In this document: piece by piece, positions 1,959-34,571 of the stretch | How the letters are laid out: every line of letters starts with the position of its first letter | Numbering within the stretch: position 1 is the first letter of the stretch | IMG/VR virus record: IMGVR_UViG_2851971941_000001 | Span: 1 to 36,077 of that record | DNA length: 36,077 bases | From: a virus | Lineage: Duplodnaviria > Heunggongvirae > Uroviricota > Caudoviricetes | Reading direction: 5' to 3' (one strand) | Notes under the pieces: generated by a model | What the model saw: only the letters and a program-made list of their open reading frames with translations | The model's database searches: none | Told to the model about the DNA's origin: nothing | Translations under genes and position numbers: made by a program

Positions 1959-1987
1959 ATAAAAAATAAGCCCGTGTAAGGGAGATT
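1959..1987. repeat. attL core: 29-bp direct repeat ATAAAAAATAAGCCCGTGTAAGGGAGATT
   Basis: Identical 29-mer recurs at 34543..34571; lies about 80 bp beyond the 3' end of int, as for the P2 att core. Confidence 0.85.
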
Positions 1988-2066
1988 TAGGGTGTCACCA
2001 GTAGGGGCTTTCAACGGTACAATGCGGGTTTGAGCGGCATAAATTACCACTGAAAGCCCTTAAACG

Positions 2067-3080
2067 TTACTCTACTGTGGACACTGTGTGGACACTCTCG
2101 GCCTCAGTACCACCTCTTAGCGGATTAAGAGAAATGGCGTCCTGAAGGTACTCTGGCGCAAAATGAGCGTAAACCATAGTTTGCTCAATCCGCGTGTGAC
2201 CTAGTATCCGTTGTAGCGTGATAATACTTCCTCCATTAATCATGAAATGAGTGGCAAAGCTGTGCCTTAGTGCATGTGTGGCTTGCCCCGTTGGCAAATC
2301 CGGTTTTATTGCTTTCATTGTTCGTCTGAAGCGAGGGTAATCAGCATCAGGGAATAAAAAACCTCGTTTGTTATCCGCGATCATTTTGGCAACAGCCTCT
2401 GAGATCGGGACGGTGCGTGGTTTGTTTGTTTTCGTTTTAACAAACGTGACGCGGTTATGGATGATATTTTCTGCTTTCAAACGAGCTGCTTCTCCCCAAC
2501 GTGCTCCTGTACTCAGGCAAAGAATCGCAATCTTTTTATTGTCGCCGTCAAGTGCTGCAAGCAGTAAGGCAATTTCTTCCTGTGTGAGATAGCCTGTTTC
2601 TGGTTTTTCCTCCTTAAGCCTCTTTGTCCCTCTGATAGGGTGCTCACCAAAGAATAACTCCGCTTCAATCAGGGCTGTAAACATGCCGCTAATACATGTT
2701 AAATCACGATTGATACTCGAAGGTTTAATACCCTGACTTCTTCGGGTGGCGCAGTACTGGCTGATAAGGGATTTCGTGATTTGAAATGCGCATGGGTCAT
2801 TCGTTATTTTTGTGAAGATTTCAATTTTTCCAAGATTAGATTTCCCATGCTCTTCGTGTTTACCCTTTAAATCCCACCAGATCTGTGTCAGTTCCGACAG
2901 ACGTCGTTTGTCTGTTGGTTTTGATAGCCATTCTTTATTGTGGTGGTTGTACAACGTGTATTTTTCGAAAGCGACAGCTTCGCTTTTCTTATCAAACTTC
3001 CTACGGATGCGTTTTCCGTTACGTCCAGTAGGGCGGATGTCCACTTCATATCGACCATCATCGAGTTTTTTGATTGCCAT
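2067..3080 (-). CDS. int: Tyrosine site-specific integrase, P2 Int-like (337 aa)
   Basis: 337 aa, the same length as P2 Int; C-terminal catalytic signatures HALRHSFATHF and LGHTRIEQTMVYAHF (R/H-x-x-R and catalytic Tyr); adjacent to att core. Confidence 0.9.
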   Translation of the reverse strand: MAIKKLDDGRYEVDIRPTGRNGKRIRRKFDKKSEAVAFEKYTLYNHHNKEWLSKPTDKRRLSELTQIWWDLKGKHEEHGKSNLGKIEIFTKITNDPCAFQITKSLISQYCATRRSQGIKPSSINRDLTCISGMFTALIEAELFFGEHPIRGTKRLKEEKPETGYLTQEEIALLLAALDGDNKKIAILCLSTGARWGEAARLKAENIIHNRVTFVKTKTNKPRTVPISEAVAKMIADNKRGFLFPDADYPRFRRTMKAIKPDLPTGQATHALRHSFATHFMINGGSIITLQRILGHTRIEQTMVYAHFAPEYLQDAISLNPLRGGTEAESVHTVSTVE

Positions 3081-3195
3081 CAGAAAACCCTCCGAGTGGT
3101 ACTTTTTTTTGCTACTACTAATCGCTTTTTTCGTGGTGGCTGAAATTTAGCCACCAATAGTAGGCACTTGTGATGAATATATTCACGATAAATTG

Positions 3196-3495
3196 TTAAC
3201 CAGTCTTTTGACCGGAGTGGGGCGACGTTGTTTCGTTTTGCCCAAAGTGTGCGAGAGCGGGCGCAATTTGCCCGGCTTCTGGAGCTACCTGATCAGTCAT
3301 GAACCACAAAGTATATTTAGTAAATCTAGGATGTTGTAAGACCTTCATTATGGCTTCAACTCCAGCGTTTTTTGACCGGCTCTCATAGCTCGAAAGTGAG
3401 CTGTAGGCTACACCAGTTAATTCACTGAATTCTTTACGGTTTAACCTTTCAGATTCACGGATTAGCTTCAACTTCTCCGAAACGTCTATTGACAT
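3196..3495 (-). CDS. C: Immunity repressor, P2 C-like (99 aa from internal ATG)
   Basis: ORF 3196..3567 is 123 aa, but the Met at codon 25 (MSIDVSEKLKLIRE) gives 99 aa, the P2 C length; helix-turn-helix-like segment KEFSELTGVAYSSLSSYE; divergent from cox. Confidence 0.8.
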   Translation of the reverse strand: MSIDVSEKLKLIRESERLNRKEFSELTGVAYSSLSSYESRSKNAGVEAIMKVLQHPRFTKYTLWFMTDQVAPEAGQIAPALAHFGQNETTSPHSGQKTG

Positions 3496-3616
3496 AATTA
3501 CTCCGATTGCGTAATTTCTTGCTGATGGTATGAAATGTTGTGCTTCTGGAGTTATCCTTTTAGGCAATAATTAGCCATTAGGAGCCATTAGAAGCACTAA
3601 GGGAGAATCGTAGCAG
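3496..3616. promoter_or_regulatory. Divergent immunity-switch region (Pc/Pe-type promoters) between C and cox, with tandem 9-bp direct repeats AGCCATTAG at 3573..3581 and 3583..3591
   Basis: 121-bp intergenic region between divergently transcribed repressor and cox; exact direct repeat at 10-bp periodicity seen in sequence; role as operator is inferred. Confidence 0.45.
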
Positions 3617-3892
3617 ATGAATAGACAGCTTGTAAGCGTGACTGATGCCGTGCCTTATCAGGAGTTTGCAAAACTCATTGGCAAAACTCCAAGAGCTGTA
3701 AGGGGCATGATTGAGAAAGGGAAATTACCAGTTATTGAGATTACTGACCCTCAGTCAGTATCGGGGCGTGCTGGTGAATATTGGGTATACCTTCCGGCAT
3801 GGAATAACGGACTAAAACTGGCTTATGAAAGCCGTCCTAAAGAGATTCGTGACGGCTGGTTGATGTGGTTAGGTCTCGGTGAACCACGTTAA
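3617..3892 (+). CDS. cox: Cox-like excisionase/transcriptional regulator (91 aa)
   Basis: 91 aa, the same length as P2 Cox; first gene of the early operon, divergent from C. Confidence 0.8.
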   Translation: MNRQLVSVTDAVPYQEFAKLIGKTPRAVRGMIEKGKLPVIEITDPQSVSGRAGEYWVYLPAWNNGLKLAYESRPKEIRDGWLMWLGLGEPR

Positions 3893-3902
3893 GGAGAACC
3901 GT

Positions 3903-4073
3903 ATGAATGAGCCTCGTTGTATTGCTCAGTTATTGCGTAACGAAAGCCCCAGGGCGATTGACTTCACCATCACCCACGGTAAGGGGCGTAAGGGAATCAT
4001 TATCCGCACCAAAAAACAGAGTCCGTTAAAAAAGGCTCTGACCTTTCTGAAAAGCCGGAGGGTCTGGAAATGA
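3903..4073 (+). CDS. Small early protein, P2 orf78-like
   Basis: In-frame ATG at 3903 with AAGGAG ribosome-binding site 8 bp upstream; 56 aa; position between cox and B. Confidence 0.55.
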   Translation: MNEPRCIAQLLRNESPRAIDFTITHGKGRKGIIIRTKKQSPLKKALTFLKSRRVWK

Positions 4074-4570
4074 CAGTGATGACGCTTAATCTCGTTGAAA
4101 AACAGCCAGCAGCTATGCGCCGGATAATTGGTAAGCATCTGGCCGTCCCTCGCTGGCAGGAGACATGCGATTATTATAATCAGATGATGGAACGCGAACG
4201 GCTAACGGTTTGCTTCCATGCGCAGTTAAAACAGCGTCACGCAACGATGCGTTTTGAAGAAATGAACGACGTCGAACGTGAACGGCTGGTTTGCGCAATT
4301 GATGAATTGCGTGGGGCATTCTCAAAACGCCGTCAGGTTGGCGCAAGTGAGTATGCATATATTAGTTTTTTAACAGTCAGTCAGCGTCGTACTTTATTTA
4401 TGCATGCCGGATTGACTGAAAAAGAATTCAACCAGCCATACTGGCGAATTAATGAAGAATCATGTTACTGGCGTGATGCTTTATTCCGTGCATTACGTGA
4501 ATTGTTCAGCCTGTTTGAGTATGCACCGACAATTCTGACGTCGGTAAAACCAGAGCAATATCTGCATTAA
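4070..4570 (+). CDS. B: Replication protein B-like (166 aa)
   Basis: 166 aa, the same length as P2 gpB; GGAG ribosome-binding site upstream; ATGA start/stop overlap with upstream ORF; synteny. Confidence 0.8.
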   Translation: MTVMTLNLVEKQPAAMRRIIGKHLAVPRWQETCDYYNQMMERERLTVCFHAQLKQRHATMRFEEMNDVERERLVCAIDELRGAFSKRRQVGASEYAYISFLTVSQRRTLFMHAGLTEKEFNQPYWRINEESCYWRDALFRALRELFSLFEYAPTILTSVKPEQYLH

Positions 4571-4633
4571 GTAATTAACCAGAGTTTTTAACGCACTTAA
4601 TTGTGCGGGGCTTCTTTTTGCCTGGAGAAAGTC

Positions 4634-4858
4634 ATGCATACAGTTTCTGAAAATCAGTGCGGTAAATACGCATTACTGCTGCAACAGGCCAGAACCGAAG
4701 CACAGGCCGACGCAGCGACACGCTTTTCTTCTCATCTTGACGCCATGATTCGCCATATCACAAAGGCGGAGTTATCCCGCGTGGAGATAGTCGAGCTGCT
4801 CAGTCAGGAGTCGGAAAAATTTCACAATATCGGATTGTCTCGCGGGGAGGTGCTTTGA
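4634..4858 (+). CDS. Small early protein, P2 orf80-like
   Basis: ATG at 4634 preceded by GGAG; 74 aa; synteny. Confidence 0.5.
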
Positions 4859-5157
4859 TGTCCTGTTCTCATTCAGTTGTATTACTGAATAACGCCTTAA
4901 AAATCGCCGTTATGAAAAATGGCGATTTGTCTCTTATTCAACTTTGCCTTGATAAAGAAAAACGCGACATAACTGAATCTGTTATCGCGATTTATCAGAA
5001 TGAATTAAACCTCCTGTCTGATGTGGTCAATTTACTTGTTAAACGCGCTGTATTCCACAAGCAAATTTCCTCAGTGGATGAACTGACAAAATTAACGACA
5101 GAGCTTGCCAGTTATTGCGCTGATGTATCCAGGAAACTTAACGATAAAAGGAGCTGA
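4858..5157 (+). CDS. Small early protein, P2 orf81-like
   Basis: ATG at 4858 overlaps upstream stop (ATGA); 99 aa; synteny. Confidence 0.5.
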   Translation: MSCSHSVVLLNNALKIAVMKNGDLSLIQLCLDKEKRDITESVIAIYQNELNLLSDVVNLLVKRAVFHKQISSVDELTKLTTELASYCADVSRKLNDKRS

Positions 5158-5159
5158 TA

Positions 5160-5384
5160 ATGCCGGACAACGTAGATTTTATTCAGGAACAACAGGCTGA
5201 ATTACTGGAGCGCCAGATTAACGCGGCAAGGGTAAAACATTGCGGTGCTTCTGCGCTGGTTTGCGAAGAGTGTGACGCGCCAATACCTGCTGCCCGTCGT
5301 GCGGCTTACCCGTCAGCCACGCGTTGTGTTTCCTGTCAGTCAGTCTTTGAAGCAAAAAACAAACATTACCGGAGAACGGCATGA
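5160..5384 (+). CDS. TraR/DksA-family C4 zinc-finger protein (P2 orf82-like)
   Basis: 74 aa with Cys pairs CEEC ... CVSC typical of phage TraR-like zinc fingers; AAAGGAG ribosome-binding site. Confidence 0.7.
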   Translation: MPDNVDFIQEQQAELLERQINAARVKHCGASALVCEECDAPIPAARRAAYPSATRCVSCQSVFEAKNKHYRRTA

Positions 5385-5656
5385 GTATTCGTATTGAAAT
5401 TGGCGAACGTTATGTCGTTACCAGTGACAGCTTTCAGTTTATTCTCCACGAGAAAAAGAGAGCGGAAAGCGGTAAAAACGCCGGTCAGGAATGGCTGGCG
5501 GTGGTTGGTTATTACCCGAAATTAAGCCAGCTCGTTTCCGGCCTGATGCATCACGATATTCTGACCGGAAGCGCAAAGTCTTTTGCTGATTTAAACGCGC
5601 AGGTTGAGCAACTCAGCAGGCGTTGTTCAGAGGCTTTTGGCTCATATGGCCGTTAA
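5381..5656 (+). CDS. Small early protein, P2 orf83-like
   Basis: 91 aa; ATGA overlap with upstream gene; synteny. Confidence 0.5.
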   Translation: MSIRIEIGERYVVTSDSFQFILHEKKRAESGKNAGQEWLAVVGYYPKLSQLVSGLMHHDILTGSAKSFADLNAQVEQLSRRCSEAFGSYGR

Positions 5657-7919
5657 AGCCTCCGGGCGTTTTGTCCCTCCGTCAGCATTTGCCGCAGGCA
5701 CCGGTAAGATGTTTACCGGTGCTTATGCATGGAACGCGCCACGCGAGGCTGTCGGGCGCGAAAGACCTCTTACACGTGATGAGATGCGTCAGGTGCAAGG
5801 TGTTTTATCCACGATTAACCGCCTGCCTTACTTTTTGCGCTCGCTGTTTACTTCACGCTATGACTACATCAGGCGCAATAAAAGCCCGGTGCACGGGTTT
5901 TATTTCCTCACATCCACTTTTCAGCGTCGTTTATGGCCGCGCATTGAGCGCGTGAATCAGCGCCATGAAATGAACACCGATGCGTCGTTGCTGTTTCTGG
6001 CAGAGCGCGACCAGTATGCGCGCCTGCCGGGAATGAATGACAAGGAGCTGAAAAAGTTTGCTGCCCGTATCTCATCGCAGCTTTTCATGATGTATGAGGA
6101 ACTCTGCGATGCCTGGGTGGATGCGCATGGCGAGAAAGAATCGCTGTTTACGGATGAGGCGCAGGCTCACCTCTATGGTCATGTTGCTGGCGCTGCACGT
6201 GCTTTCAATATTTCCCCTCTCTACTGGAAAAAATACCGTAAAGGACAGATGACCACGAGGCAGGCATATTCTGCCATTGCCCGTCTGTTTAACGATGAGT
6301 GGTGGACTCATCAGCTTAAAGGCCAGCGTATGCGCTGGCATGAGGCGTTACTGATAGCTGTCGGGGAGGTCAATAAAGACCGTTCTCCTTATGCCAGTAA
6401 ACATGCCATTCGGGATGTGCGTGCACGCCGCCAGGCAAATCTGGAATTTCTTAAATCGTGTGACCTTGAAAACAGGGAAACCGGCGAGCGCATCGACCTT
6501 ATCAGTAAGGTGATGGGCAGTATTTCTAATCCTGAAATTCGCCGGATGGAGCTGATGAACACCATCGCTGGAATTGAGCGTTACGCCGCCGCAGAGGGTG
6601 ATGTGGGGATGTTTATCACGCTGACCGCGCCGTCAAAGTATCACCCGACTCGTCAGGTCAGAAAAGGCGAAAGTAAAACCGTTCAGCTTAATCACGGCTG
6701 GAACGATGAGGCATTTAATCCAAAGGATGCGCAGCGTTATCTCTGCCGCATCTGGAGCCTGATGCGCACGGCATTCAAGGATAATGATTTACAGGTCTAC
6801 GGTTTGCGTGTCGTCGAGCCACACCACGACGGAACGCCGCACTGGCATATGATGCTTTTTTGTAATCCACGCCAGCGTAACCAGATTATCGAAATCATGC
6901 GTCGCTATGCGCTCAAAGAGGATGGTGACGAAAGAGGAGCCGCGCGAAACCGTTTTCAGGCAAAGCACCTTAACCGGGGCGGTGCTGCGGGATATATCGC
7001 GAAATACATTTCAAAAAATATCGACGGCTATGCACTGGATGGTCAGCTCGATAACGATACCGGTAAGCCGCTTAAAGATACTGCCGCGGCTGTTACCGCA
7101 TGGGCGTCAACGTGGCGCATCCCGCAATTTAAAACGGTTGGACTGCCGACAATGGGGGCTTACCGTGAACTACGCAAATTGCCTCGCGGCGTCAGTATTG
7201 CTGATGAGTTTGACGAACGCGTCGAGGCTGCTCGCGCTGCCGCAGACAGTGGTGATTTTGCGTTGTATATCAGCGCGCAGGGTGGGGCAAATGTCCCGCG
7301 CGATTGTCAGACTGTCAGGGTTGCCCGTAGCCCGTCGGATGACGTTAACGAGTACGAGGAAGAAGTCGAGAGAGTGGTCGGCATTTACGCGCCGCATCTC
7401 GGCGCGCGTCATATTCATATCACCAGAACGACGGACTGGCGCATTGTGCCGAAAGTTCCGGTCGTTGAGCCTTTGACTTTAAAAAGCGGCATCGCCGCGC
7501 CTCGGAGTCCTGTCAATAACTGTGGAAAGGTCACCGGTGGTGATACTTCGTTACCGGCTCCCACACCTTCTGAGCACGCCGCAGCAGTGCTTAATCTGGT
7601 TGATGACGGTGTTATCGAATGGAATGACCCGGAGGTCGTGAGGGCGCTCAGAGGTGCATTAAAACACGGACTGAGAACACCAAATCGTCAGCAAAGAAAC
7701 GGAAGCCCGTTAAAACCGCATGAAATAGCGCCATCAGCCAGGCTGACCCGGTCGGAACGATTGCAAATTACCCGTATCCGTGTAGACCTTGCTCAGAACG
7801 GTATCAGGCCGCAGCGATGGGAGCTTGAGGCGCTGGCGCGTGGTGCAATTGTGAACTATGGCGCAAAAGAATTTCATTACCATGTTCAGAAGGCGTGGGA
7901 AGCATTTTCGAGGTGGTAA
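5646..7919 (+). CDS. A: Rolling-circle replication initiator/endonuclease, P2 gpA-like
   Basis: ORF 5604..7919 (771 aa); probable start at internal Met MAVKASGRF; contains HxH-type motif PHWHMMLF and a two-tyrosine active-site motif YIAKYISK typical of rolling-circle Rep proteins; size close to P2 A. Confidence 0.85.
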   Translation: MAVKASGRFVPPSAFAAGTGKMFTGAYAWNAPREAVGRERPLTRDEMRQVQGVLSTINRLPYFLRSLFTSRYDYIRRNKSPVHGFYFLTSTFQRRLWPRIERVNQRHEMNTDASLLFLAERDQYARLPGMNDKELKKFAARISSQLFMMYEELCDAWVDAHGEKESLFTDEAQAHLYGHVAGAARAFNISPLYWKKYRKGQMTTRQAYSAIARLFNDEWWTHQLKGQRMRWHEALLIAVGEVNKDRSPYASKHAIRDVRARRQANLEFLKSCDLENRETGERIDLISKVMGSISNPEIRRMELMNTIAGIERYAAAEGDVGMFITLTAPSKYHPTRQVRKGESKTVQLNHGWNDEAFNPKDAQRYLCRIWSLMRTAFKDNDLQVYGLRVVEPHHDGTPHWHMMLFCNPRQRNQIIEIMRRYALKEDGDERGAARNRFQAKHLNRGGAAGYIAKYISKNIDGYALDGQLDNDTGKPLKDTAAAVTAWASTWRIPQFKTVGLPTMGAYRELRKLPRGVSIADEFDERVEAARAAADSGDFALYISAQGGANVPRDCQTVRVARSPSDDVNEYEEEVERVVGIYAPHLGARHIHITRTTDWRIVPKVPVVEPLTLKSGIAAPRSPVNNCGKVTGGDTSLPAPTPSEHAAAVLNLVDDGVIEWNDPEVVRALRGALKHGLRTPNRQQRNGSPLKPHEIAPSARLTRSERLQITRIRVDLAQNGIRPQRWELEALARGAIVNYGAKEFHYHVQKAWEAFSRW

Positions 7920-8029
7920 TCTAAATATGAAAAATCTGCACACCGAAACACTCTTGTAGGTTGATAATTTGCAAACTAGGTGGATTTACTCTTTGATGTG
8001 TAAGAAGTTATACTACAAAAAATTGATTT

Positions 8030-8950
8030 ATGGGCTTGGCGATGTATAACGATCCTTATAGTGACCCAAAAGCGTGGGAATCATATTTCAAAAATATTGT
8101 TTGGCTACATTATAAGCCTGCTAACTGTTGTGACTTGCCAGATGAGCATGGAGGCGACTTTGGGCTGGAGTGTTACACTCTGAGTGGTCATGTTTTTCAG
8201 TGTTACTTGCCTGAGCAGTCGAGTGATATTGATAAGCTTTATAAAGCGCAACAAAAAAAGATTTATACTGATATAAAAAAGTTTTCTCAGGATAACATTA
8301 AAGAATTAGAGGAGCTTTTTGGCACATTAAAAATTAGCCGCTGGATATTAGCTACACCATATAATAAATCGGCGAAATTAAGTCAATATTGCACAAAAAA
8401 ATCATTAAAAGTAAGAGAGTTAGGGATTTCTTACGTTGCTGATGATTTTCAAATAGTAGTGCAAACAGATCGAAATTATATAGAAGAAGCGTTCTTTCTT
8501 CGCAAAAATAACTATCAATTAAGCTTTAATATAAATGATGCGACGGCTGAGAATGCTGCTAACTTTATTAGTGAAAATACATCTTTTTTAGATAAGCTAA
8601 ATTTAAAATTACCTAAGATAAATGATGATGTATCTAGGCAGGGTTTATATAGAGAGTTTTTAATACAAAAATATCTTGATTATCAAAACTTGCTGGATGC
8701 TTTGAAGAGAGACTGGGTTGATATCTATGAAATTATCTATAACTGTGTTCAACATAGAGAACGTAATTTGGTAGGTCTCTTTCTTCTTACTTCATCAGAT
8801 GCGAAACCATCAGATATAATGAAAGATGAAATCGCTTTGTTAAAGAAATGTATTGAAGAGGAAGTTAGTACGCTTAAACAGGCTGACTTGGATAAGATAA
8901 CATGGGGAGTTATTTCTGATTGGCTTATAAGATGCCCTTTAGATTTTTAG
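8030..8950 (+). CDS. Cargo operon gene 1: 306-aa protein of unknown function, candidate effector of a defence system
   Basis: AT-rich ORF; first gene of a three-gene unit with 1-bp intergenic gaps; N-terminal Cys/His/acidic cluster CCDLPDEHGGDFGLECY...GHVFQCY; no confident family assignment. Confidence 0.6.
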   Translation: MGLAMYNDPYSDPKAWESYFKNIVWLHYKPANCCDLPDEHGGDFGLECYTLSGHVFQCYLPEQSSDIDKLYKAQQKKIYTDIKKFSQDNIKELEELFGTLKISRWILATPYNKSAKLSQYCTKKSLKVRELGISYVADDFQIVVQTDRNYIEEAFFLRKNNYQLSFNINDATAENAANFISENTSFLDKLNLKLPKINDDVSRQGLYREFLIQKYLDYQNLLDALKRDWVDIYEIIYNCVQHRERNLVGLFLLTSSDAKPSDIMKDEIALLKKCIEEEVSTLKQADLDKITWGVISDWLIRCPLDF

Positions 8951-8951
8951 A

Positions 8952-9428: not shown

Positions 9429-9429
9429 T

Positions 9430-24298: not shown

Positions 24299-24308
24299 GT
24301 GAGGAATA

Positions 24309-26330: not shown

Positions 26331-26331
26331 T

Positions 26332-27839: not shown

Positions 27840-29030
27840 ATGAGTGACTATCATCACGGTGTGCAGGTGCTGGAGATTAACGACGGCACCCGCGTCATTT
27901 CCACCGTATCCACGGCCATTGTCGGCATGGTCTGCACGGCCAGCGATGCGGATGCGGAAACCTTCCCCCTCAATAAACCTGTGCTGATTACCAATGTGCA
28001 GAGCGCAATTGCAAAGGCCGGTAAAAAAGGCACGCTGGCGGCGTCGTTGCAGGCCATCGCTGACCAGTCAAAACCGGTCACCGTAGTCGTGCGTGTGGAA
28101 GACGGCACCGGCGACGACGAAGAAACGAAACTCGCGCAGACTGTTTCCAATATCATCGGCACCACCGACGAAAACGGTCAGTACACCGGACTGAAAGCCC
28201 TGCTGGCGGCGGAGTCGGTTACCGGTGTTAAACCGCGTATTCTCGGTGTGCCGGGACTGGACACCAAAGAGGTGGCGGTTGCACTGGCATCAGTCTGTCA
28301 GAAGCTGCGCGCTTTCGGGTATATCAGCGCATGGGGCTGTAAAACCATTTCCGAGGTGAAAGCCTACCGCCAGAATTTCAGCCAGCGTGAGCTGATGGTC
28401 ATCTGGCCGGATTTCCTCGCATGGGATACGGTCGCCAGTACCACCGCCACCGCGTATGCCACCGCCCGTGCGCTGGGCCTGCGCGCTAAAATCGACCAGG
28501 AGCAGGGCTGGCATAAAACGCTGTCCAACGTCGGGGTAAACGGTGTTACCGGCATCAGTGCCTCTGTATTCTGGGATTTGCAGGAGTCCGGCACCGATGC
28601 TGACCTGTTGAACGAGTCAGGTGTCACAACGCTGATTCGCCGTGACGGTTTCCGCTTCTGGGGTAACCGTACCTGCTCTGATGACCCGCTGTTCATCTTT
28701 GAAAACTACACCCGCACCGCGCAGGTGCTGGCCGACACGATGGCTGAGGCGCACATGTGGGCGGTGGACAAGCCCATCACTGCAACGCTGATTCGCGACA
28801 TCGTTGACGGCATCAATGCCAAATTCCGTGAGCTGAAAACAAACGGCTATATCGTGGATGCGACCTGCTGGTTCAGCGAAGAATCCAACGATGCGGAAAC
28901 CCTCAAGGCCGGAAAACTGTATATCGACTACGACTATACACCGGTGCCTCCTCTCGAAAACCTGACCCTGCGCCAGCGTATTACCGATAAATACCTGGCA
29001 AATCTGGTCACCTCGGTTAACAGCAATTAA
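27840..29030 (+). CDS. FI: Tail sheath protein FI (396 aa)
   Basis: 396 aa, the same length as P2 gpFI; followed by tube gene. Confidence 0.85.
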   Translation: MSDYHHGVQVLEINDGTRVISTVSTAIVGMVCTASDADAETFPLNKPVLITNVQSAIAKAGKKGTLAASLQAIADQSKPVTVVVRVEDGTGDDEETKLAQTVSNIIGTTDENGQYTGLKALLAAESVTGVKPRILGVPGLDTKEVAVALASVCQKLRAFGYISAWGCKTISEVKAYRQNFSQRELMVIWPDFLAWDTVASTTATAYATARALGLRAKIDQEQGWHKTLSNVGVNGVTGISASVFWDLQESGTDADLLNESGVTTLIRRDGFRFWGNRTCSDDPLFIFENYTRTAQVLADTMAEAHMWAVDKPITATLIRDIVDGINAKFRELKTNGYIVDATCWFSEESNDAETLKAGKLYIDYDYTPVPPLENLTLRQRITDKYLANLVTSVNSN

Positions 29031-29042
29031 GGAGCCTGACCG

Positions 29043-29561
29043 ATGGCAATGCCGCGCAAACTCAAGTTAATGAACGTCTTTCTGAACGGCTACAGCTATC
29101 AGGGCGTTGCAAAGTCCGTCACGCTGCCAAAACTGACCCGTAAGCTCGAAAACTATCGCGGTGCGGGGATGAACGGCAGCGCACCGGTAGACCTCGGCCT
29201 TGATGACGATGCACTGTCAATGGAGTGGTCGCTCGGGGGCTTCCCGGATTCGGTTATCTGGGAGCTGTACGCCGCAACCGGTGTGGATGCTGTGCCGATT
29301 CGTTTTGCAGGCTCTTACCAGCGCGACGATACCGGCGAAACGGTGGCCGTCGAGGTGGTCATGCGTGGACGTCAGAAAGAAATCGACACCGGCGAGGGGA
29401 AACAGGGAGAAGACACCGAGTCGAAAATCTCCGTGGTCTGCACCTATTTCCGGCTGACGATGGACAGTAAGGAGCTGGTCGAAATCGACACCATCAACAT
29501 GATTGAGAAGGTGAACGGCGTCGACCGGCTGGAGCAACACCGCCGCAATATCGGCCTGTAA
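29043..29561 (+). CDS. FII: Tail tube protein FII (172 aa)
   Basis: 172 aa, the same length as P2 gpFII; synteny. Confidence 0.85.
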   Translation: MAMPRKLKLMNVFLNGYSYQGVAKSVTLPKLTRKLENYRGAGMNGSAPVDLGLDDDALSMEWSLGGFPDSVIWELYAATGVDAVPIRFAGSYQRDDTGETVAVEVVMRGRQKEIDTGEGKQGEDTESKISVVCTYFRLTMDSKELVEIDTINMIEKVNGVDRLEQHRRNIGL

Positions 29562-29617
29562 TTTTCATCCGGTCAGCCTGGCTGACCGGTTAACCCCGAT
29601 TCAGAAGTGAGAAAACC

Positions 29618-29893
29618 ATGAACAAAGAAAATGTGATTACCCTGGACAATCCGGTCAAGCGTGGTGAGCAGGTTATCGAACAGGTCACGCTGATGAAACC
29701 CAGTGCGGGGACGCTGCGCGGTGTCAGTCTGGCTGCGGTCGCGAACTCAGAAGTCGATGCACTGATTAAGGTGCTGCCGCGCATGACGGCACCGATGCTG
29801 ACCGAGCAGGAGGTCGCCGCGCTGGAACTGCCTGACCTTGTGGCGCTGGCCGGTAAGGTGGTCGGTTTTTTGTCTCCGAACTCGGTGCAGTGA
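29618..29893 (+). CDS. E: Tail assembly chaperone E (91 aa)
   Basis: 91 aa, the same length as P2 gpE; ends VVGFLSPNSVQ just after a T6G slippery run. Confidence 0.8.
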   Translation: MNKENVITLDNPVKRGEQVIEQVTLMKPSAGTLRGVSLAAVANSEVDALIKVLPRMTAPMLTEQEVAALELPDLVALAGKVVGFLSPNSVQ

Positions 29894-30045
29894 CGTTTCC
29901 GAAAAATCTGTCGGTCGATGACCTGATGGCAGATGTGGCAGTGATATTTCACTGGCCGCCATCAGAACTGTATCCCATGAGCCTGACCGAACTCATCACA
30001 TGGCGCGAAAAGGCGCTCCGGCGAAGCGGAAACACGAATGAGTAA
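29618..30045 (+). CDS. E': Tail assembly chaperone E+E' made by programmed -1 frameshift at TTTTTTG (29866..29872); predicted 142 aa
   Basis: Translating the -1 frame by hand from the slippery site gives an open extension FVSELGAVTFPKNLSVDDLMADVAVIFHWPPSELYPMSLTELITWREKALRRSGNTNE ending at TAA 30043..30045; total 142 aa equals P2 gpE'; overlaps start of T. Confidence 0.7.
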
Positions 30046-32485
30046 CAATGTAAAATTACAGGTATTGCTCAGGGCTGTTGACCAGGCATCCCGCCCGTTT
30101 AAATCCATCCGCACAGCGAGCAAATCGCTGTCGGGGGATATCCGGGAAACACAAAAATCACTGCGCGAGCTGAACGGTCACGCATCCCGTATTGAGGGAT
30201 TCCGCAAGACCAGTGCACAGCTCGCCGTGACTGGTCATGCACTTGAAAAGGCACGGCAGGAAGCCGAAGCCCTTGCCACACAGTTTAAAAACACTGAACG
30301 TCCGACCCGTGCTCAGGCGAAAGTGCTGGAATCCGCAAAGCGTGCGGCGGAGGACTTACAGGCGAAATATAACCGCCTGACGGATTCCGTTAAACGCCAG
30401 CAGCGGGAACTGGCCGCTGTGGGAATTAATACCCGCAATCTTGCACATGATGAGCAGGGACTGAAAAACCGTATCAGTGAAACCACCGCACAGCTTAACC
30501 GTCAGCGTGACGCGCTGGCGCGTGTCAGTGCACAACAGGCAAAACTTAACGCAGTCAAACAGCGTTATCAGGCAGGCAAGGAACTGGCCGGAAATATGGC
30601 CTCAGTGGGCGCTGCCGGTGTGGGGATTGCGGCGGCGGGAACGATGGCCGGAGTTAAGTTGCTGATGCCCGGTTATGAGTTTGCGCAGAAAAACTCAGAA
30701 TTGCAGGCCGTGCTCGGAGTGGCAAAAGACTCCGCCGAAATGACCGCACTACGCAAACAGGCGCGCCAGCTCGGCGACAATACCGCCGCCTCGGCGGATG
30801 ATGCGGCCGGTGCGCAGATAATCATCGCGAAAGCGGGTGGGGATGTTGATGCCATTCAGGCGGCAACGCCGGTCACGCTGAATATGGCGCTGGCGAACCG
30901 CCGCACGATGGAAGAAAACGCCGCCCTGCTGATGGGGATGAAATCCGCCTTTCAGCTTTCAAACGATAAGGTCGCTCATATCGGGGATGTTCTCTCCATG
31001 ACGATGAACAAAACCGCCGCCGATTTTGACGGCATGAGCGATGCGCTGACCTATGCCGCACCTGTGGCAAAAAATGCCGGTGTCAGCATTGAAGAAACCG
31101 CCGCAATGGTCGGGGCGCTGCATGATGCAAAAATCACAGGCTCAATGGCGGGGACGGGAAGCCGTGCCGTGTTAAGCCGCCTGCAGGCACCGACGGGAAA
31201 AGCGTGGGATGCACTGAAAGAGCTTGGTGTGAAAACCTCAGACAGCAAGGGAAACATCCGACCAGTATTTACCATTCTGAAAGAAATGCAGGCCAGTTTT
31301 GAGAAAAAACGGCTCGGTACTGCCCAGCAGGCCGAATACATGAAAACCATTTTCGGGGAGGAGGCCAGCTCAGCCGCCGCTGTGCTGATGACTGCCGCGT
31401 CAACCGGAAAGCTGGACAAACTGACCGCTGCGTTTAAAGCCTCAGACGGAAAGACCGCAGAACTGGTAAATATCATGCAGGACAACCTCGGCGGTGACTT
31501 TAAGGAGTTTCAGTCCGCTTATGAGGCGGTGGGGACTGACCTGTTTGACCAGCAGGAAGGCGCACTGCGTAAGCTCACGCAGACGGCCACAAAGTATGTG
31601 TTAAAACTCGACGGCTGGATCCAGAAAAACAAATCACTGGCGTCAACCATCGGCCTCATTGTCGGTGGCGCGCTGGCGCTTACTGGCATCATCGGTGCCA
31701 TTGGTCTTGTAGCCTGGCCGGTTATCACCGGCATCAATGCCATTATCGCGGTAGCAGGCGCAATGGGGGCAATCTTCACGACGGTTGGTAGTGCTGTTAT
31801 GACGGCCATCGGGGCGATTAGCTGGCCGGTTGTGGCCGTGGTGGCCGCCATTGTCGCCGGGGCGTTGCTTATCCGTAAATACTGGGAGCCTGTCAGCGCA
31901 TTCTTTGGCGGTGTGGTTGAAGGGCTGAAAGCGGCATTTGCGCCGGTGGGGGAACTGTTCACGCCACTTAAGCCGGTGTTTGACTGGCTGGGCGAAAAGT
32001 TACAGGCCGCGTGGCAGTGGTTTAAAAACCTGATTGCCCCGGTCAAAGCCACCCAGGACACCCTGAACCGTTGCCGTGATACGGGCGTCATGTTCGGGCA
32101 GGCACTGGCTGACGCGCTGATGCTGCCGCTTAATGCGTTCAACAAACTGCGCAGCGGTATTGACTGGGTACTGGAAAAACTCGGGGTCATCAACAAAGAG
32201 TCAGACACACTTGACCAGACCGCCGCCAGAACTCATGCCGCCACGTATGGCACCGGTGGTTATATTCCGGCGACCAGCTCTTATGCAGGCTATCAGGCTT
32301 ATCAGCCAGTCTCGGCACCGGCTGGCCGCTCTTATGTGGACCAGAGTAAAAACGAATATCACATCAGCCTGACGGGTGGTACTGCGCCGGGGACACAGCT
32401 TGACCGCCAGTTACAGGATGCGCTCGAAAAATACGAGCGGGATAAACGTGCGCGTGCCCGTGCCAGCATGATGCATGACGGTTAA
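30038..32485 (+). CDS. T: Tail tape-measure protein T (815 aa)
   Basis: 815 aa, the same length as P2 gpT; Ala/Gly-rich hydrophobic repeats in central region. Confidence 0.85.
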   Translation: MSNNVKLQVLLRAVDQASRPFKSIRTASKSLSGDIRETQKSLRELNGHASRIEGFRKTSAQLAVTGHALEKARQEAEALATQFKNTERPTRAQAKVLESAKRAAEDLQAKYNRLTDSVKRQQRELAAVGINTRNLAHDEQGLKNRISETTAQLNRQRDALARVSAQQAKLNAVKQRYQAGKELAGNMASVGAAGVGIAAAGTMAGVKLLMPGYEFAQKNSELQAVLGVAKDSAEMTALRKQARQLGDNTAASADDAAGAQIIIAKAGGDVDAIQAATPVTLNMALANRRTMEENAALLMGMKSAFQLSNDKVAHIGDVLSMTMNKTAADFDGMSDALTYAAPVAKNAGVSIEETAAMVGALHDAKITGSMAGTGSRAVLSRLQAPTGKAWDALKELGVKTSDSKGNIRPVFTILKEMQASFEKKRLGTAQQAEYMKTIFGEEASSAAAVLMTAASTGKLDKLTAAFKASDGKTAELVNIMQDNLGGDFKEFQSAYEAVGTDLFDQQEGALRKLTQTATKYVLKLDGWIQKNKSLASTIGLIVGGALALTGIIGAIGLVAWPVITGINAIIAVAGAMGAIFTTVGSAVMTAIGAISWPVVAVVAAIVAGALLIRKYWEPVSAFFGGVVEGLKAAFAPVGELFTPLKPVFDWLGEKLQAAWQWFKNLIAPVKATQDTLNRCRDTGVMFGQALADALMLPLNAFNKLRSGIDWVLEKLGVINKESDTLDQTAARTHAATYGTGGYIPATSSYAGYQAYQPVSAPAGRSYVDQSKNEYHISLTGGTAPGTQLDRQLQDALEKYERDKRARARASMMHDG

Positions 32486-32499
32486 GGAGGTGACGAAAA

Positions 32500-32979
32500 A
32501 TGATGCTCGCGTTAGGTATGTTTGTTTTTATGCGCCAGACGCTGCCACACCAGACCATGCAGCGTGAATCAGATTATCGCTGGCCGTCAAATTCCCGTAT
32601 CGGTAAACGGGATGCCTTTCAGTTTCTCGGTGTTGGCGAGGAAAATATCACGCTTGCCGGTGTGCTTTATCCCGAACTGACCGGCGGCAAGCTGACGATG
32701 ACCACGCTCAGGCTGATGGCTGAGGAAGGCCGGGCGTGGCCGTTGCTGGATGGCACAGGCATGATTTACGGCATGTATGTCATCAGCAGGGTGAGTGAAA
32801 CAGGGAGTATTTTCTTTGCAGACGGCACACCCCGGAAAATTGATTTTACGCTGTCACTTACCCGCGTTGATGAATCACTGGCCGCGCTTTATGGCGATAT
32901 CGGTAAACAGGCGGAATCGCTCATCGGTAAGGCGGGCAGTATGGCAACTAAATTCACGGGTATGACGGGGGCGGGATAA
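32500..32979 (+). CDS. U: Tail protein U (159 aa)
   Basis: 159 aa, the same length as P2 gpU; synteny. Confidence 0.8.
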   Translation: MMLALGMFVFMRQTLPHQTMQRESDYRWPSNSRIGKRDAFQFLGVGEENITLAGVLYPELTGGKLTMTTLRLMAEEGRAWPLLDGTGMIYGMYVISRVSETGSIFFADGTPRKIDFTLSLTRVDESLAALYGDIGKQAESLIGKAGSMATKFTGMTGAG

Positions 32980-34142
32980 TGCTGGATACGCTGACATTTG
33001 ATGCAGGCAGTACGCTGACGCCGGATTACATGCTGATGCTCGACAGCAGGGATATTACCGGCAATATCAGCGACCGTCTGATGAGCATGACCCTGACGGA
33101 TAACCGGGGCTTTGAGGCTGACCAGCTTGATATTGAACTGAACGATGCCGACGGGCAGGTCGGGCTGCCGGTTCGTGGCGCTGTCCTGACGGTGTATATC
33201 GGCTGGAAAGGTTTTGCCCTGGTATGCAAAGGGAAATTTACCGTTGATGAGGTTGAACACCGGGGCGCGCCGGATGTGGTCACCATCCGCGCCCGGAGTG
33301 CAGATTTTCGCGGGACGCTCAATTCCCGCCGGGAAGGCTCCTGGCATGACACCACGCTCGGTGCGATTGTTGAGGCGATAGCCTCCCGTAACAGGCTGGA
33401 AGCCCGTGTTGCTCCGTCACTGGCCGGAATTAAAATCCCGCACATCGACCAGTCGCAGGAGTCTGATGCGAAATTCCTGACCCGTCTTGCTGAACGCAAC
33501 GGCGGTGAGGTGTCGGTAAAAATGGGAAAACTGCTGTTTCTCAAAGCGGGGCAGGGGGTGACTGCCAGCGGTAAAAAAATCCCGCAGATTACCATCACCC
33601 GCAGCGACGGTGACCGTCATCATTTTGCGATTGCTGATCGTGGAGCCTATACCGGCGTAACGGCAAAGTGGTTACACACCAAAGACCCGAAGCCGCAAAA
33701 GCAGAAGGTAAAACTGAAACGCAAAAAGAAAGAAAAACACCTGCGCGCACTGGAGCACCCGAAAGCAAAACCGGTCACGCAGAAGAAAGCGCCAAAAGTA
33801 CCGGAAGCGCGCGAAGGTGAATACATGGCCGGTGAGGCTGACAACGTTTTTGCCCTGACTACGGTATATGCCACGAAAGCACAGGCCATGCGCGCCGCTC
33901 AGGCGAAGTGGGATAAACTGCAACGGGGTGTGGCGGAGTTCTCCATCAGCCTGGCTACCGGTCGGGCAGATATTTACACGGAAACACCGGTTAAAGTGTC
34001 AGGCTTTAAGCGCGTCATAGACGAGCAGGACTGGACAATCACTAAGGTGACACATTTTCTGAATAATAGCGGCTTCACAACGTCCTTGGAGCTTGAGGTC
34101 AGGCTTTCTGATGTAGAGTACGAAACAGAAGATGATGAGTGA
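32979..34142 (+). CDS. D: Tail protein D (387 aa)
   Basis: 387 aa, the same length as P2 gpD; ATGA overlap with U. Confidence 0.85.
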   Translation: MLDTLTFDAGSTLTPDYMLMLDSRDITGNISDRLMSMTLTDNRGFEADQLDIELNDADGQVGLPVRGAVLTVYIGWKGFALVCKGKFTVDEVEHRGAPDVVTIRARSADFRGTLNSRREGSWHDTTLGAIVEAIASRNRLEARVAPSLAGIKIPHIDQSQESDAKFLTRLAERNGGEVSVKMGKLLFLKAGQGVTASGKKIPQITITRSDGDRHHFAIADRGAYTGVTAKWLHTKDPKPQKQKVKLKRKKKEKHLRALEHPKAKPVTQKKAPKVPEAREGEYMAGEADNVFALTTVYATKAQAMRAAQAKWDKLQRGVAEFSISLATGRADIYTETPVKVSGFKRVIDEQDWTITKVTHFLNNSGFTTSLELEVRLSDVEYETEDDE

Positions 34143-34223
34143 TATTTTTATTTTATCTATTTGTTTTGTAAGGATAAATTAACTAAAATGGCACCATCAA
34201 CAAAACCGGAAGAGGTGCTCGCG

Positions 34224-34442
34224 ATGTTTCATTGTCCTTTATGCCAGCATGCCGCACATGCGCGTACAAGCCGCTATATCACTGACACGACAAAAGAGCG
34301 TTATCACCAGTGTCAGAACGTGAATTGCAGCGCCACGTTCATCACTTATGAGTCGGTACAGCGATACATCGTGAAGCCGGGAGAAGTCCACGCCGTAAGA
34401 CCGCACCCGTTGCCGTCAGGGCAGCAAATTATGTGGATGTAA
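34224..34442 (+). CDS. ogr: Late-gene transcriptional activator Ogr (zinc finger, 72 aa)
   Basis: Internal ATG at 34224 gives 72 aa MFHCPLCQHAAHARTSRYITDTTKERYHQCQNVNCSATF with CxxC...CxxxxC zinc-binding pattern; last gene before attR. Confidence 0.85.
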   Translation: MFHCPLCQHAAHARTSRYITDTTKERYHQCQNVNCSATFITYESVQRYIVKPGEVHAVRPHPLPSGQQIMWM

Positions 34443-34454
34443 TTACAAACAGAA

Positions 34455-34480
34455 AGCCCCTCAGTCGAGGGGCTTTTTTT
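34455..34480 (+). terminator. Rho-independent terminator after ogr
   Basis: AGCCCCTC-AGTC-GAGGGGCT hairpin followed by a 7-T run, 12 bp after the ogr stop. Confidence 0.75.
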
Positions 34481-34542
34481 GTCGATGTGGTCAATGTGTG
34501 GACGTGACCAGAAATAAATCCTTTTATTTCATTGTATTACGC

Positions 34543-34571
34543 ATAAAAAATAAGCCCGTGTAAGGGAGATT
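34543..34571. repeat. attR core: second copy of the 29-bp direct repeat
   Basis: Exact copy of the 1959..1987 29-mer, about 100 bp downstream of ogr. Confidence 0.85.

What the first reader, a model, noticed from the sequence alone, without database searches (positions are those of the whole stretch)
1959..34571. Intact P2-like prophage between yegR and yegQ, bounded by a perfect 29-bp att core
Identical 29-mers ATAAAAAATAAGCCCGTGTAAGGGAGATT lie at 1959..1987 and 34543..34571, with int next to one copy and ogr next to the other. From my recollection of the K-12 map, the yegQ-yegR interval there holds only a cryptic P2 remnant (ogrK and a D fragment), so this window appears to show the full-length element at the same site. 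All structural, lysis and regulatory genes are full length, and the E/E' frameshift and cos are intact, so the prophage is likely inducible or at least complementable.
Basis: partly seen in the sequence, partly recalled or inferred. Interest (0 to 1): 0.5.

Follow-up and report, generated by a model that had tools for sequence, protein, structure and literature searches.

The report
Complete P2-like prophage in cyaR
This is an ordinary, apparently complete P2-type prophage sitting in the classic P2 attachment site of E. coli, which is the 3' end of the small-RNA gene cyaR, and its only individual features are swapped-in accessory genes: a Lamassu defence operon, an HNH nuclease and a non-P2 immunity region.

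Summary
The 29-mer occurs exactly twice, at 1959-1987 and 34543-34571, with int beside one copy and ogr beside the other.

Between the copies lies a 32.6-kb genome collinear with phage P2.
- All 38 P2 core genes are full length with no internal stops.
- cos, the ori nick region, the E/E' slippery site, the late-promoter activator sites and the Int arm sites are conserved.
- Pooled dN/dS against P2 is 0.088.

Joining the two flanks in silico gives a 1117-bp sequence 100% identical to the unoccupied site of E. coli NGF1. K-12's ogrK-yegZ remnant equals this prophage minus 1979-33927.

- The att core is the loop, 3' arm and U-tract of the terminator of the sRNA gene cyaR (34548-34633, minus strand). 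This is a documented P2 insertion site.
- P2's old, tin, orf91 and fun(Z) are replaced by a Lamassu lmuA-lmuC-lmuB operon and a 169-aa HNH nuclease gene.
- The C repressor and operator region belong to a non-P2 immunity type.

About 15% of complete E. coli genomes carry a P2-type prophage at this site. "Inducible" is the wrong expectation, because P2-like phages are by definition not UV-inducible. This is a new member of a well-known kind and of low interest.

The parts
1913..1943 (+). Host-side motif that resembles the phage P arm. It is part of attB-flanking DNA, not of the prophage.
   Evidence: 27 of 31 positions match the P arm at 34481-34511. The local alignment score is 38 against a shuffle mean of 16.2 (sd 2.2), and 0 of 2000 shuffles reach it. 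The motif is also present in the unoccupied sites of NGF1 and BL21 and in K-12.
1959..1987 (.). attL core, the left copy of the 29-bp direct repeat.
   Evidence: The phage-side sequence 1961-2105 is 145/145 identical to P2 attP from the core through the P' arm.
2004..2101 (+). Cox-binding region and P' arm. The two Int arm-type sites TGTGGACA lie at 2076 and 2087.
   Evidence: Mapped from the P2 annotation 24399-24496 onto the identical window sequence. The arm-site scan is, and the consensus tgTGGaCa is given in PMC3448106.
2067..3080 (-). int, a tyrosine integrase of 337 aa.
   Evidence: 336 of 337 residues are identical to P2 Int. The only change is M264T.
3196..3495 (-). C immunity repressor of 99 aa, of a non-P2 immunity type.
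   Evidence: 65% identical to P2 C. The N-terminal HTH half is divergent, whereas the C-terminal 40 residues are nearly identical. It matches Pfam HTH_3 and phrog_147. The same allele, WP_000020919.1, occurs in same-site prophages of other strains.
3496..3616 (.). Pe/Pc switch region (operators and promoters), not alignable with P2.
   Evidence: The alignment breaks down here. The region is 99.5% identical to the prophage-derived record ON470606.1. No consensus promoter or direct repeat was detected.
3617..7919 (+). Early operon: cox 3617-3892, orf78 3903-4073, B 4070-4570, orf80 4634-4858, orf81 4858-5157, orf82 5160-5384, orf83 5381-5656 and A 5646-7919. The ori nick site lies near 7504.
   Evidence: cox is 84% identical to P2, orf81 89%, and the other genes 97-100%. 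The 81-nt region around the ori nick is 79/81 identical. The A motif YIAKYISK is conserved.
7874..11545 (+). Cargo module in the gpA-gpQ hotspot, about 33% GC, which replaces P2 orf91-tin-old. It holds lmuA 8030-8950, lmuC 8952-9428 and lmuB 9430-11451.
11575..11593 (+). cos, the 19-nt cohesive-end sequence GGCGAGGCGGGGAAAGCAC.
   Evidence: Identical to P2 cosL/cosR, with conserved flanks.
11762..14568 (-). Q portal (11762-12796) and P large terminase (12796-14568).
   Evidence: 99.1% and 99.8% aa identity to P2, both full length.
14742..20942 (+). O operon: O, N, M, L, X, Y (holin), K (endolysin), lysA, lysB, lysC, R and S.
   Evidence: 95-100% aa identity to P2, all with P2 lengths. The PP/PO intergenic region is 170/174 identical.
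21014..21799 (-). orf30, a P2 accessory gene of unknown function in a low-GC island between S and V.
   Evidence: 87% aa identity to P2 Orf30, with dN/dS 0.47. It matches phrog_2407 but no Pfam or PADLOC family.
21883..26859 (+). V operon: V, W, J, I, H (tail fibre, 24309-26330) and G.
   Evidence: V, W, J and I are 97-99% identical to P2. H is 673 aa against 669 in P2, and its C-terminal third is only about 14-30% identical. G is 93% identical.
27030..27539 (+). A 169-aa HNH nuclease gene that replaces fun(Z) in the G-FI hotspot.
   Evidence: Pfam HNH_5 1.3e-10 and HNH 6.3e-10. The two CxxC pairs are shown. The ATG at 27030 follows a GAGGAG. The module is present in only 2 of 5426 complete E. 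coli genomes.
27840..34442 (+). F operon and ogr: FI, FII, E, E+E' (29618-30045, with a -1 shift at GGTTTTTTG near 29872), T, U, D and ogr (34224-34442).
   Evidence: 98-100% aa identity to P2. The E+E' frame is open with one substitution, and Ogr is 72/72 identical. The PF activator half-sites TGT-N12-CCA are kept although the spacer has diverged.
34453..34542 (+). ogr/F-operon terminator, the P arm (Int arm-type sites at 34486 and 34497) and the IHF-site region.
   Evidence: 122/130 identical to P2 24255-24383, with the arm scan. The variant CATTGTATTACGC next to the core is the same as in the K-12 remnant.
34543..34571 (.). attR core, the right copy of the 29-bp repeat.
34548..34633 (-). 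cyaR (ryeE) sRNA gene. Its terminator loop, 3' arm and U-tract are supplied by the att core.
   Evidence: Rfam RF00112 scores 100.7 bits against a gathering score of 47, over model positions 1-85 of 85. The sequence is identical to K-12 and to the empty site. An 11-bp hairpin of -15.9 kcal/mol (z -6.3) forms at attR, whereas attL forms no hairpin.

Best explanation
The interval 1959-34571 is a complete lysogenised temperate myovirus of the P2 group (Peduovirus).

Integration. Its tyrosine integrase recombined the attP core with the identical attB core at the 3' end of the sRNA gene cyaR. This is the classical preferred P2 site, locI. The core carries the loop, 3' arm and U-tract of the CyaR terminator, so integration regenerates an unchanged cyaR at attR. 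It leaves a non-hairpin copy next to int at attL.

Inferred life cycle, by homology to P2:
- Lysogeny is held by a C repressor of a non-P2 immunity class.
- Derepression would express Cox and the early operon, followed by A-protein nicking at ori.
- Ogr would then activate the four late operons, followed by terminase cutting at cos and lysis by Y, K, LysA, LysB and LysC.

Accessory genes. Two of P2's three lysogenic-conversion loci have been exchanged. A short-type Lamassu operon (a PD-(D/E)xK-like LmuA, LmuC and the SMC-like LmuB) sits between A and cos. A small HNH nuclease gene sits between G and FI.

Shown here: the anatomy, the site, the precision of the junctions and the conservation. 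Inferred: that the prophage is viable and that the cargo genes defend against other phages.
For: - The repeat is exact and unique.
- The element is collinear with P2 at 96-98% nucleotide identity outside four replaced segments.
- All 38 core genes have the P2 length, or differ by at most 4 codons, with no internal stops. Pooled dS is 0.096, dN 0.0085 and dN/dS 0.088.
- cos, ori, the slippery site, the PP/PO, PV and PF activator sites, and the P and P' arms are conserved.
- The in-silico excision product is 100% identical over 1117 bp to the unoccupied site of E. coli NGF1.
- 806 of 5426 complete E. coli genomes have the same yegR-flank/int junction, and 4565 have the site uninterrupted or nearly so.
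- cyaR overlaps attR and is unchanged. 'cyaR RNA' is tabulated as a P2-prophage insertion site in E. coli W, K-12 (ogr-D') and B (PMC3032704).
- The K-12 remnant equals the window with 1979-33927 deleted.
- The gpA-gpQ locus is the published P2 defence hotspot (PMC9122126; PMC13586616).
Against: - Viability is not demonstrable from sequence. Missense changes (for example Int M264T and 27 changes in A) or changes in the unaligned switch region could be disabling.
- No sigma-70 consensus promoter and no operator-like direct repeat were detected in 3496-3616.
- Cox differs from P2 Cox at 15 of 91 residues, yet must bind Cox boxes in attL that are identical to P2's.
- The exact attP junction of this variant was not found in IMG/VR viral contigs.
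- The only deposited 'phage' record with this immunity region, ON470606.1, still carries the host genes yegR and yegS. It is therefore a prophage excerpt and not proof of a free phage.
- A sibling prophage in O145:H28 RM12761 is visibly decayed, with IS66 in int and a frameshifted endolysin. Elements of this lineage do decay in place.
Confidence: 0.9

Rival explanations
1. The element is a cryptic, non-viable prophage that only looks intact. It stays in place and is kept for its defence cargo, having been disabled by missense or regulatory changes that are invisible at the ORF level.
For: Same-site relatives do decay: K-12 keeps only ogrK and D', and RM12761 has an IS-disrupted int and a frameshifted endolysin. 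The switch region could not be checked against a characterised phage.
Against: There are no stops, frameshifts, IS elements or deletions in any of the 38 core genes. dN/dS is 0.088. Ogr, K, X, E, orf78 and orf82 are 100% identical to P2, and all tested cis sites are conserved. The flanks are 100% identical to an unoccupied site in another strain, which is consistent with recent integration.
Confidence: 0.25
2. The 29-mer is a host repeat or a chance duplicate, and the element arrived by some route other than Int-mediated recombination at this core.
For: None was found. The only hint is that host DNA left of the core contains a P-arm-like motif.
Against: There is one copy per unoccupied site, and one occurrence in one representative genome for each of 185,579 species. 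The core contains the annotated 27-bp P2 attP core. Removing one copy plus the interval reproduces a natural empty site exactly.
Confidence: 0.01
3. The low-GC three-gene cassette and the HNH gene are not defence genes. They could be selfish or unrelated cargo, for example a homing HNH endonuclease or a DNA-repair SMC-like complex.
For: No experimental test of this cassette is cited. Rousset et al. list it only as hotspot system 51, 'AAA_13/DUF3732'. The HNH protein matches defence models only weakly, with E about 1e-5, and through the HNH motif alone. LmuA has Q-C-Y where Mrr/Cap4-type nucleases have Q-x-K.
Against: All three proteins match PADLOC Lamassu models over their full length. The gene order lmuA-lmuC-lmuB, LmuB K40 and Walker B hhhhDE, and the single CxxC fit the 'short Lamassu' description (PMC12663957). 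The loci replace the known exclusion genes old, tin and fun(Z). Homologues of the HNH protein sit next to an NgoMIV-type R-M pair or another HNH gene in other genera.
Confidence: 0.25

Closest known systems
Bacteriophage P2 (NC_001895 / AF063097)
   Same: The gene order, all 38 core genes (mostly 97-100% aa identity), cos, ori, the Ogr-dependent late promoters, Int and the attP arms are shared, along with the same 27-bp core.
   Different: The N-terminal half of C and the operators belong to a different immunity type: C is 65% identical and cox 84%. orf91, tin and old are replaced by Lamassu, and fun(Z) by an HNH gene. The C-terminal receptor-binding part of tail fibre H is divergent.
E. coli K-12 cryptic prophage PR-X (ogrK-yegZ), the 'ogr-D'' remnant at cyaR
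   Same: It has the same site, the same orientation and the same P-arm variant next to the core. The K-12 sequence aligns to window 1807-1978 and then directly to 33928-34844.
   Different: K-12 has lost everything from within the attL core to the middle of gene D, about 32 kb. The window has the full genome.
Same-site P2-like prophages in other E. coli strains (FDAARGOS_1284, YJ6, O145:H28 RM12761, E7-1N7, ATCC 11775; Wphi2 in strain W)
   Same: They share the yegR/int junction (806 of 5426 genomes). Some share the same C allele and some the identical Lamassu cassette (31 genomes). The same HNH module occurs in 2 genomes.
   Different: None of the five same-site prophages fetched and inspected combines Lamassu, orf30 and HNH; no whole-prophage search of the E. 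coli genomes was run. Cargo at the three hotspots and the tail fibres are shuffled between them, as described for P2-like phages (PMC13586616).
Vibrio cholerae DdmABC / Lamassu Vc-Cap4 and Salmonella LmuACB (PDB 9nxx, 9ny5, 9hr5, 9hqx)
   Same: Both have three genes in the order effector, small subunit, SMC-like ATPase. LmuB is of short type with a P-loop lysine at position 40. LmuA is a nuclease-fold N-terminal domain plus a helical C-terminal domain.
   Different: There is no detectable sequence similarity to any solved chain. LmuA is shorter, 306 aa against about 355-390. Its conserved motif is GDFG-x-E...Q-C-Y rather than a canonical D...Q/E-x-K. LmuB has one CxxC hook, whereas the V. cholerae protein has none.

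Membership tests
P2-like coliphage (Peduovirus, P2 sensu stricto) | The gene order is collinear with P2, and the structural genes are at least about 96% identical to P2 (criterion quoted in PMC1904263). | tested here: met
   The head, tail and lysis genes are 95-100% aa and 95.5-98.9% nt identical. The exceptions are the 3' part of H and gene G (93%).
P2-like coliphage (Peduovirus, P2 sensu stricto) | A P2-type switch: divergent C and cox genes with face-to-face promoters Pe and Pc, and operators made of direct repeats. | tested here: inconclusive
   C (HTH) and cox are present in the P2 arrangement. However, the 121-bp spacer is unalignable with P2, and neither consensus promoters nor direct repeats were found.
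P2-like coliphage (Peduovirus, P2 sensu stricto) | A tyrosine integrase with arm-type sites of consensus tgTGGaCa on both sides of the core. | tested here: met
   Int is 336/337 identical to P2 Int. Arm-type sites lie at 2076, 2087, 34486 and 34497. The consensus is from PMC3448106.
P2-like coliphage (Peduovirus, P2 sensu stricto) | The Ogr zinc-finger late activator, four late operons with activator sites, 19-nt cos ends, the A-protein ori inside gene A, and the E/E' -1 frameshift. | tested here: met
P2-like coliphage (Peduovirus, P2 sensu stricto) | Not inducible by UV, and produces infectious contractile-tailed virions. | not testable with these tools
   This needs culture work. There is no 186-type tum or antirepressor gene, because the map is collinear with P2.
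Integration at the P2 preferred site locI (3' end of cyaR) | An identical core at both junctions, one copy in unoccupied sites, and exact reconstruction of a natural empty site. | tested here: met
   The position matches the P2 site given for MG1655 (PMC3448106) and the 'cyaR RNA' site (PMC3032704).
Integration at the P2 preferred site locI (3' end of cyaR) | The target gene is left intact after insertion. | tested here: met
   cyaR scores 100.7 bits over the full model. It is identical to K-12 and to the empty site through the U-tract, and the terminator hairpin is kept.
Lamassu defence system (short type, LmuA-LmuC-LmuB) | An SMC/Rad50-like LmuB with Walker A, Walker B hhhhD[Q/S/T/E], a coiled coil and an optional CxxC hook, about 600 aa long. 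| tested here: met
   PADLOC LmuB E 1.1e-98 over residues 1-669. GKST with K40, LIVFDE at 604-609 and CPTC at 386, in a protein of 673 aa. The criteria are from PMC12663957.
Lamassu defence system (short type, LmuA-LmuC-LmuB) | An LmuA with an N-terminal effector domain and the conserved C-terminal domain, plus a small LmuC. | tested here: met
Lamassu defence system (short type, LmuA-LmuC-LmuB) | Confers protection against phages or plasmids. | not testable with these tools
   The cassette is only catalogued, as system 51 in Table S5B of PMC9122126.
HNH nuclease | A beta-beta-alpha-metal motif with a catalytic His, Asn and His, and zinc-binding Cys pairs. | tested here: met
   Pfam HNH_5 at 41.5 bits and HNH at 39.5 bits, both above their cut-offs. 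CVCC at 42 and CSKC at 75 flank ...AHIIPHSLGGSNDVSNYILL....

The most novel reading that the evidence does not exclude
Unoccupied locI sites of E. coli carry a conserved P-arm-like Int arm-type motif 16-46 bp from the core (window 1913-1943). The mundane reading is a scar of an ancient P2-like prophage. The novel reading is that this arm-type site on the bacterial side is functional. It might recruit the N-terminal domain of Int to attB, and so help explain why P2 strongly prefers this site or how resident remnants recombine with incoming phages. Separately, the HNH gene and the PD-(D/E)xK Lamassu variant may be untested anti-phage effectors.
Probability: 0.1. Interest if true: 0.4.

Novelty: new member of a known kind. 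Interest (0 to 1): 0.15.

Why it matters
The finding adds little. It is a clean, fully annotated example of a P2-type prophage in its textbook site, and it shows the full-length state from which the K-12 ogrK-yegZ remnant can be derived by a single deletion. It also shows that integration into an sRNA gene preserves that gene. It illustrates the already published modular exchange of defence cargo at the P2 hotspots. Practical value lies in the strain's predicted phage-resistance repertoire (Lamassu, and possibly the HNH gene) and its potential as a helper for P4-like satellites.

Tried and rejected
- Sequence searches of LmuA, LmuB and LmuC against PDB chains found nothing. Fold comparison was needed instead.
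- Pfam and NCBIfam give no family above cut-off for the three Lamassu proteins or for Orf30.
- The consensus promoter scan and the repeat search in the C-cox spacer found no Pe/Pc promoters or operators.
- I first took phage record ON470606.1 (vB_EcoM-720R8) as evidence that this immunity type belongs to a viable phage. I rejected this because the record is 'partial genome' and contains yegR, yegS and the gat repressor, so it is a prophage excerpt.
- The exact attP junction of this variant was not found in IMG/VR. IMG/VR contigs carrying the LmuA gene look like prophage predictions; one metagenomic contig starts in yegR by coordinate offset.
- The flank 1640-1958 has no phage homology beyond the short P-arm-like motif.
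- There are no tRNA or tmRNA genes, so this is not a tRNA-type site.
- The 128-aa ORF at 21799-22185 and the 81-aa ORF at 1805-2050 were dismissed. The first overlaps the PV promoter and the start of V in a region collinear with P2, and the second spans attL.
- De Lay & Gottesman 2009 and Karlsson et al. 2006 are not held in the library. The immunity class number (I-X) of this C allele could therefore not be assigned.

Full report
**Observation.** The 29-mer ATAAAAAATAAGCCCGTGTAAGGGAGATT is present exactly twice, at 1959-1987 and 34543-34571. No further copy appears with up to three mismatches, and none is expected by chance. Across one representative genome for each of 185,579 bacterial and archaeal species, it occurs once, in one E. 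coli chromosome. It is therefore not a dispersed repeat. int (2067-3080, minus strand) lies 80 bp inside the left copy, and ogr (34224-34442) ends 101 bp inside the right copy. The flanks are yegS and yegR on the left and yegQ/trhP on the right.

**What lies between the repeats.**
- Megablast against deposited phages gives P2 as the best hit, with 83% of the first 23 kb covered at 97% identity.
- A blastn map against NC_001895 shows collinearity in prophage order. That order is attL, int, C, cox, B, A, cargo, cos, Q, P, the O to S genes, orf30, the V to G genes, cargo, the FI to D genes, ogr, attR.
- tblastn with 42 P2 proteins finds 38 of them at full length. orf91, tin, old and fun(Z) have no counterpart.
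- Direct translation shows that every one of the 38 genes starts with ATG, ends in a stop codon and has no internal stop. All have the P2 length except H (+4 codons), A (-4) and orf81 (-1).
- Pooled over 33 equal-length genes, dS is 0.096, dN 0.0085 and dN/dS 0.088. The divergence from P2 therefore accumulated under purifying selection.

**Cis-acting sites.**
- The 19-nt cos sequence is identical to P2's and occurs once, at 11575-11593.
- The ori nick region inside gene A is 79/81 identical, and the A motif YIAKYISK is intact.
- The slippery GGTTTTTTG is kept, and the 142-aa E+E' frame is open.
- The PP/PO intergenic region is 170/174 identical, and the PV region 84/87.
- At PF the spacer has diverged, but the half-sites TGT-N12-CCA are kept.
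- The phage side of attL is 145/145 identical to P2 attP, including the Cox-binding region and the two TGTGGACA P' arm sites.
- The P-arm side of attR is 122/130 identical to P2.

**The integration site.**
- An Rfam scan finds one RNA gene in the window. This is cyaR (RyeE) at 34548-34633 on the minus strand, scoring 100.7 bits against a gathering score of 47 over the full model.
- cyaR overlaps the right core by 24 nt. On the minus strand, the core supplies the last two bases of the 5' arm, the loop, the 3' arm and the U-tract of the CyaR terminator. The rest of the 5' arm is host DNA.
- cyaR in the window is identical to that of K-12 and of an unoccupied site through the T-run.
- The 11-bp hairpin folds at -15.9 kcal/mol (z -6.3) at attR. 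The attL copy forms no hairpin.
- 'cyaR RNA' is already tabulated as the insertion site of P2-type elements in E. coli W (Wphi2), K-12 (ogr-D') and B (PMC3032704). The P2 site listed for MG1655 falls in the same interval (PMC3448106).

**Precision of the junctions.** Joining 1400-1987 to 34572-35100 gives a 1117-bp sequence that is 100% identical to the chromosome of E. coli NGF1, which has a single core there. Among 5426 complete E. coli genomes, 4565 have the site uninterrupted or nearly so. A further 806 (15%) have the yegR-side flank joined to a P2-type int.

**The K-12 remnant.** The K-12 interval contains cyaR, ogrK, the D fragment yegZ and yegR, annotated as PR-X. It aligns to window 1807-1978 and then directly to 33928-34844.

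**Differences from P2.**
1. *Immunity.* C is 65% identical to P2 C. The differences are concentrated in the N-terminal HTH half, the 121-bp C-cox spacer is unalignable, and Cox differs at 15 of 91 residues.
   - The same C allele, WP_000020919.1, is found in same-site prophages of FDAARGOS_1284, YJ6 and RM12761.
   - P2-like coliphages are known to fall into several immunity classes while sharing structural genes at least 96% identical (PMC1904263, PMC3448106).
2. *The A-Q hotspot.* Segment 7874-11545, about 33% GC, carries three plus-strand genes.
   - All three match PADLOC Lamassu models over their full length: LmuA 1.1e-29, LmuC 2.5e-23 and LmuB 1.1e-98.
   - LmuB has the P-loop lysine at position 40, Walker B LIVFDE and one CxxC. 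This fits the 'short Lamassu' description (PMC12663957).
   - LmuA has no Pfam or PDB sequence match. An AlphaFold model with pLDDT 87 is closest to the solved LmuA structures by Foldseek, with 9nxx at E 1.4e-4.
   - The cassette is 100% identical in 31 complete E. coli genomes and is absent from deposited phage records.
   - It is listed with the same protein sequences as P2-hotspot system 51 ('AAA_13/DUF3732', 79 occurrences) in Rousset et al. 2022, Table S5B. The gpA-gpQ locus is the published main defence hotspot of P2-like phages.
3. *The G-FI hotspot.* fun(Z) is replaced by a 169-aa HNH nuclease gene at 27030-27539.
   - The module is found in only 2 of 5426 complete E. coli genomes. One of these is a same-site P2-like prophage with different A-Q cargo.
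   - Homologues in Atlantibacter lie beside an NgoMIV-type restriction-modification pair. Those in Enterobacter lie beside another HNH gene and an integrase fragment.
4. *Tail fibre and orf30.* The C-terminal third of tail fibre H is divergent. orf30 is retained at 87% identity.

**Mechanism.**
- *Shown here:* a complete P2-type genome is inserted by conservative site-specific recombination at the cyaR core, and cyaR is left intact.
- *Inferred from homology to P2:* C maintains lysogeny, and Cox with Int and IHF carries out excision. Replication follows by A-dependent rolling circle, then Ogr-dependent late transcription, cos packaging and lysis by holin, endolysin and spanins.
- *Inferred from family membership:* LmuB-LmuC senses foreign DNA ends or replication structures and releases LmuA to cut DNA, and the HNH protein is a nuclease of unknown target.
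- *On induction:* P2-like phages are classically not UV-inducible and release about 1e-4 to 1e-3 phage per cell spontaneously (PMC1904263). 'Inducible' is therefore not the right expectation. 'Probably viable, and a P4 helper' is the better one.

**Caveats.**
- Viability is untested.
- The switch region could not be validated against a characterised phage. The only deposited record sharing it, ON470606.1, contains host genes.
- A sibling prophage in O145:H28 RM12761 is decayed.

**Verdict.** The element is a new mosaic member of a very well known kind, in a site occupied in about 15% of E. coli genomes. Interest is low.

Noticed in passing
window 34548-34633 (minus strand): The sRNA gene cyaR (RyeE) overlaps the right att core. 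The core provides the loop, 3' arm and U-tract of its terminator.
   Followed up: yes
window 1913-1943, compared with 34481-34511: Host DNA 16-46 bp left of the attL core resembles the phage P arm, with 27 of 31 positions matching and 0 of 2000 shuffles reaching the score. The motif is also present in the unoccupied sites of NGF1 and BL21 and in K-12. It may be the scar of an ancient P2-like element, or an arm-type Int site on the bacterial side.
   Followed up: partly
window 8030-11451: A Lamassu operon (lmuA-lmuC-lmuB) sits in the A-Q hotspot, and RefSeq annotates all three genes as 'hypothetical protein' in sibling prophages. LmuA is a short (306 aa) PD-(D/E)xK-like variant with an invariant Q-C-Y motif in place of Q-x-K.
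   Followed up: yes
window 27030-27539: A 169-aa HNH nuclease gene replaces fun(Z). It occurs in 2 of 5426 complete E. coli genomes. Homologues in Atlantibacter sit 565 bp from a C5-methyltransferase and NgoMIV-like restriction pair.
   Followed up: partly
window 3196-3640: The immunity module is a hybrid. The C-terminal 40 residues of C, and int, are P2-like. The N-terminal HTH half of C, the operators and the N-terminus of Cox are of another type, with the recombination breakpoint inside the C gene near 3325.
   Followed up: partly
window ~1637-1806: A 170-bp segment downstream of yegR is present here and in NGF1 but absent from BL21 and most other E. coli genomes. This explains the '85% in 2 pieces' class of empty sites.
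   Followed up: partly
L003 (K-12) compared with window 1978/33928: The deletion that made the K-12 remnant PR-X runs from inside the attL core to the middle of gene D. The two alignments overlap by about 5 nt at the junction, which suggests microhomology.
   Followed up: partly
L006 (E. coli O145:H28 RM12761), locus 11768-15231 and 30725-31221: A sibling prophage with the identical Lamassu cassette has an IS66-family element inside int and a frameshifted endolysin. It is an example of decay in place while the defence cargo is retained.
   Followed up: no
window 21014-21799 (minus strand): orf30 is a low-GC island (38% GC) with relaxed constraint compared with the core genes (dN/dS 0.47 against 0.09). 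It has no Pfam or PADLOC match. Other same-site prophages carry different genes at this position (a GTP pyrophosphokinase or an AAA ATPase) or none.
   Followed up: partly
window 7985-8014: A sigma-70-like site (TTTACT, 18-nt spacer, TATACT) lies 16 bp upstream of lmuA. It could be the cassette's own promoter, but it is only a consensus match.
   Followed up: no
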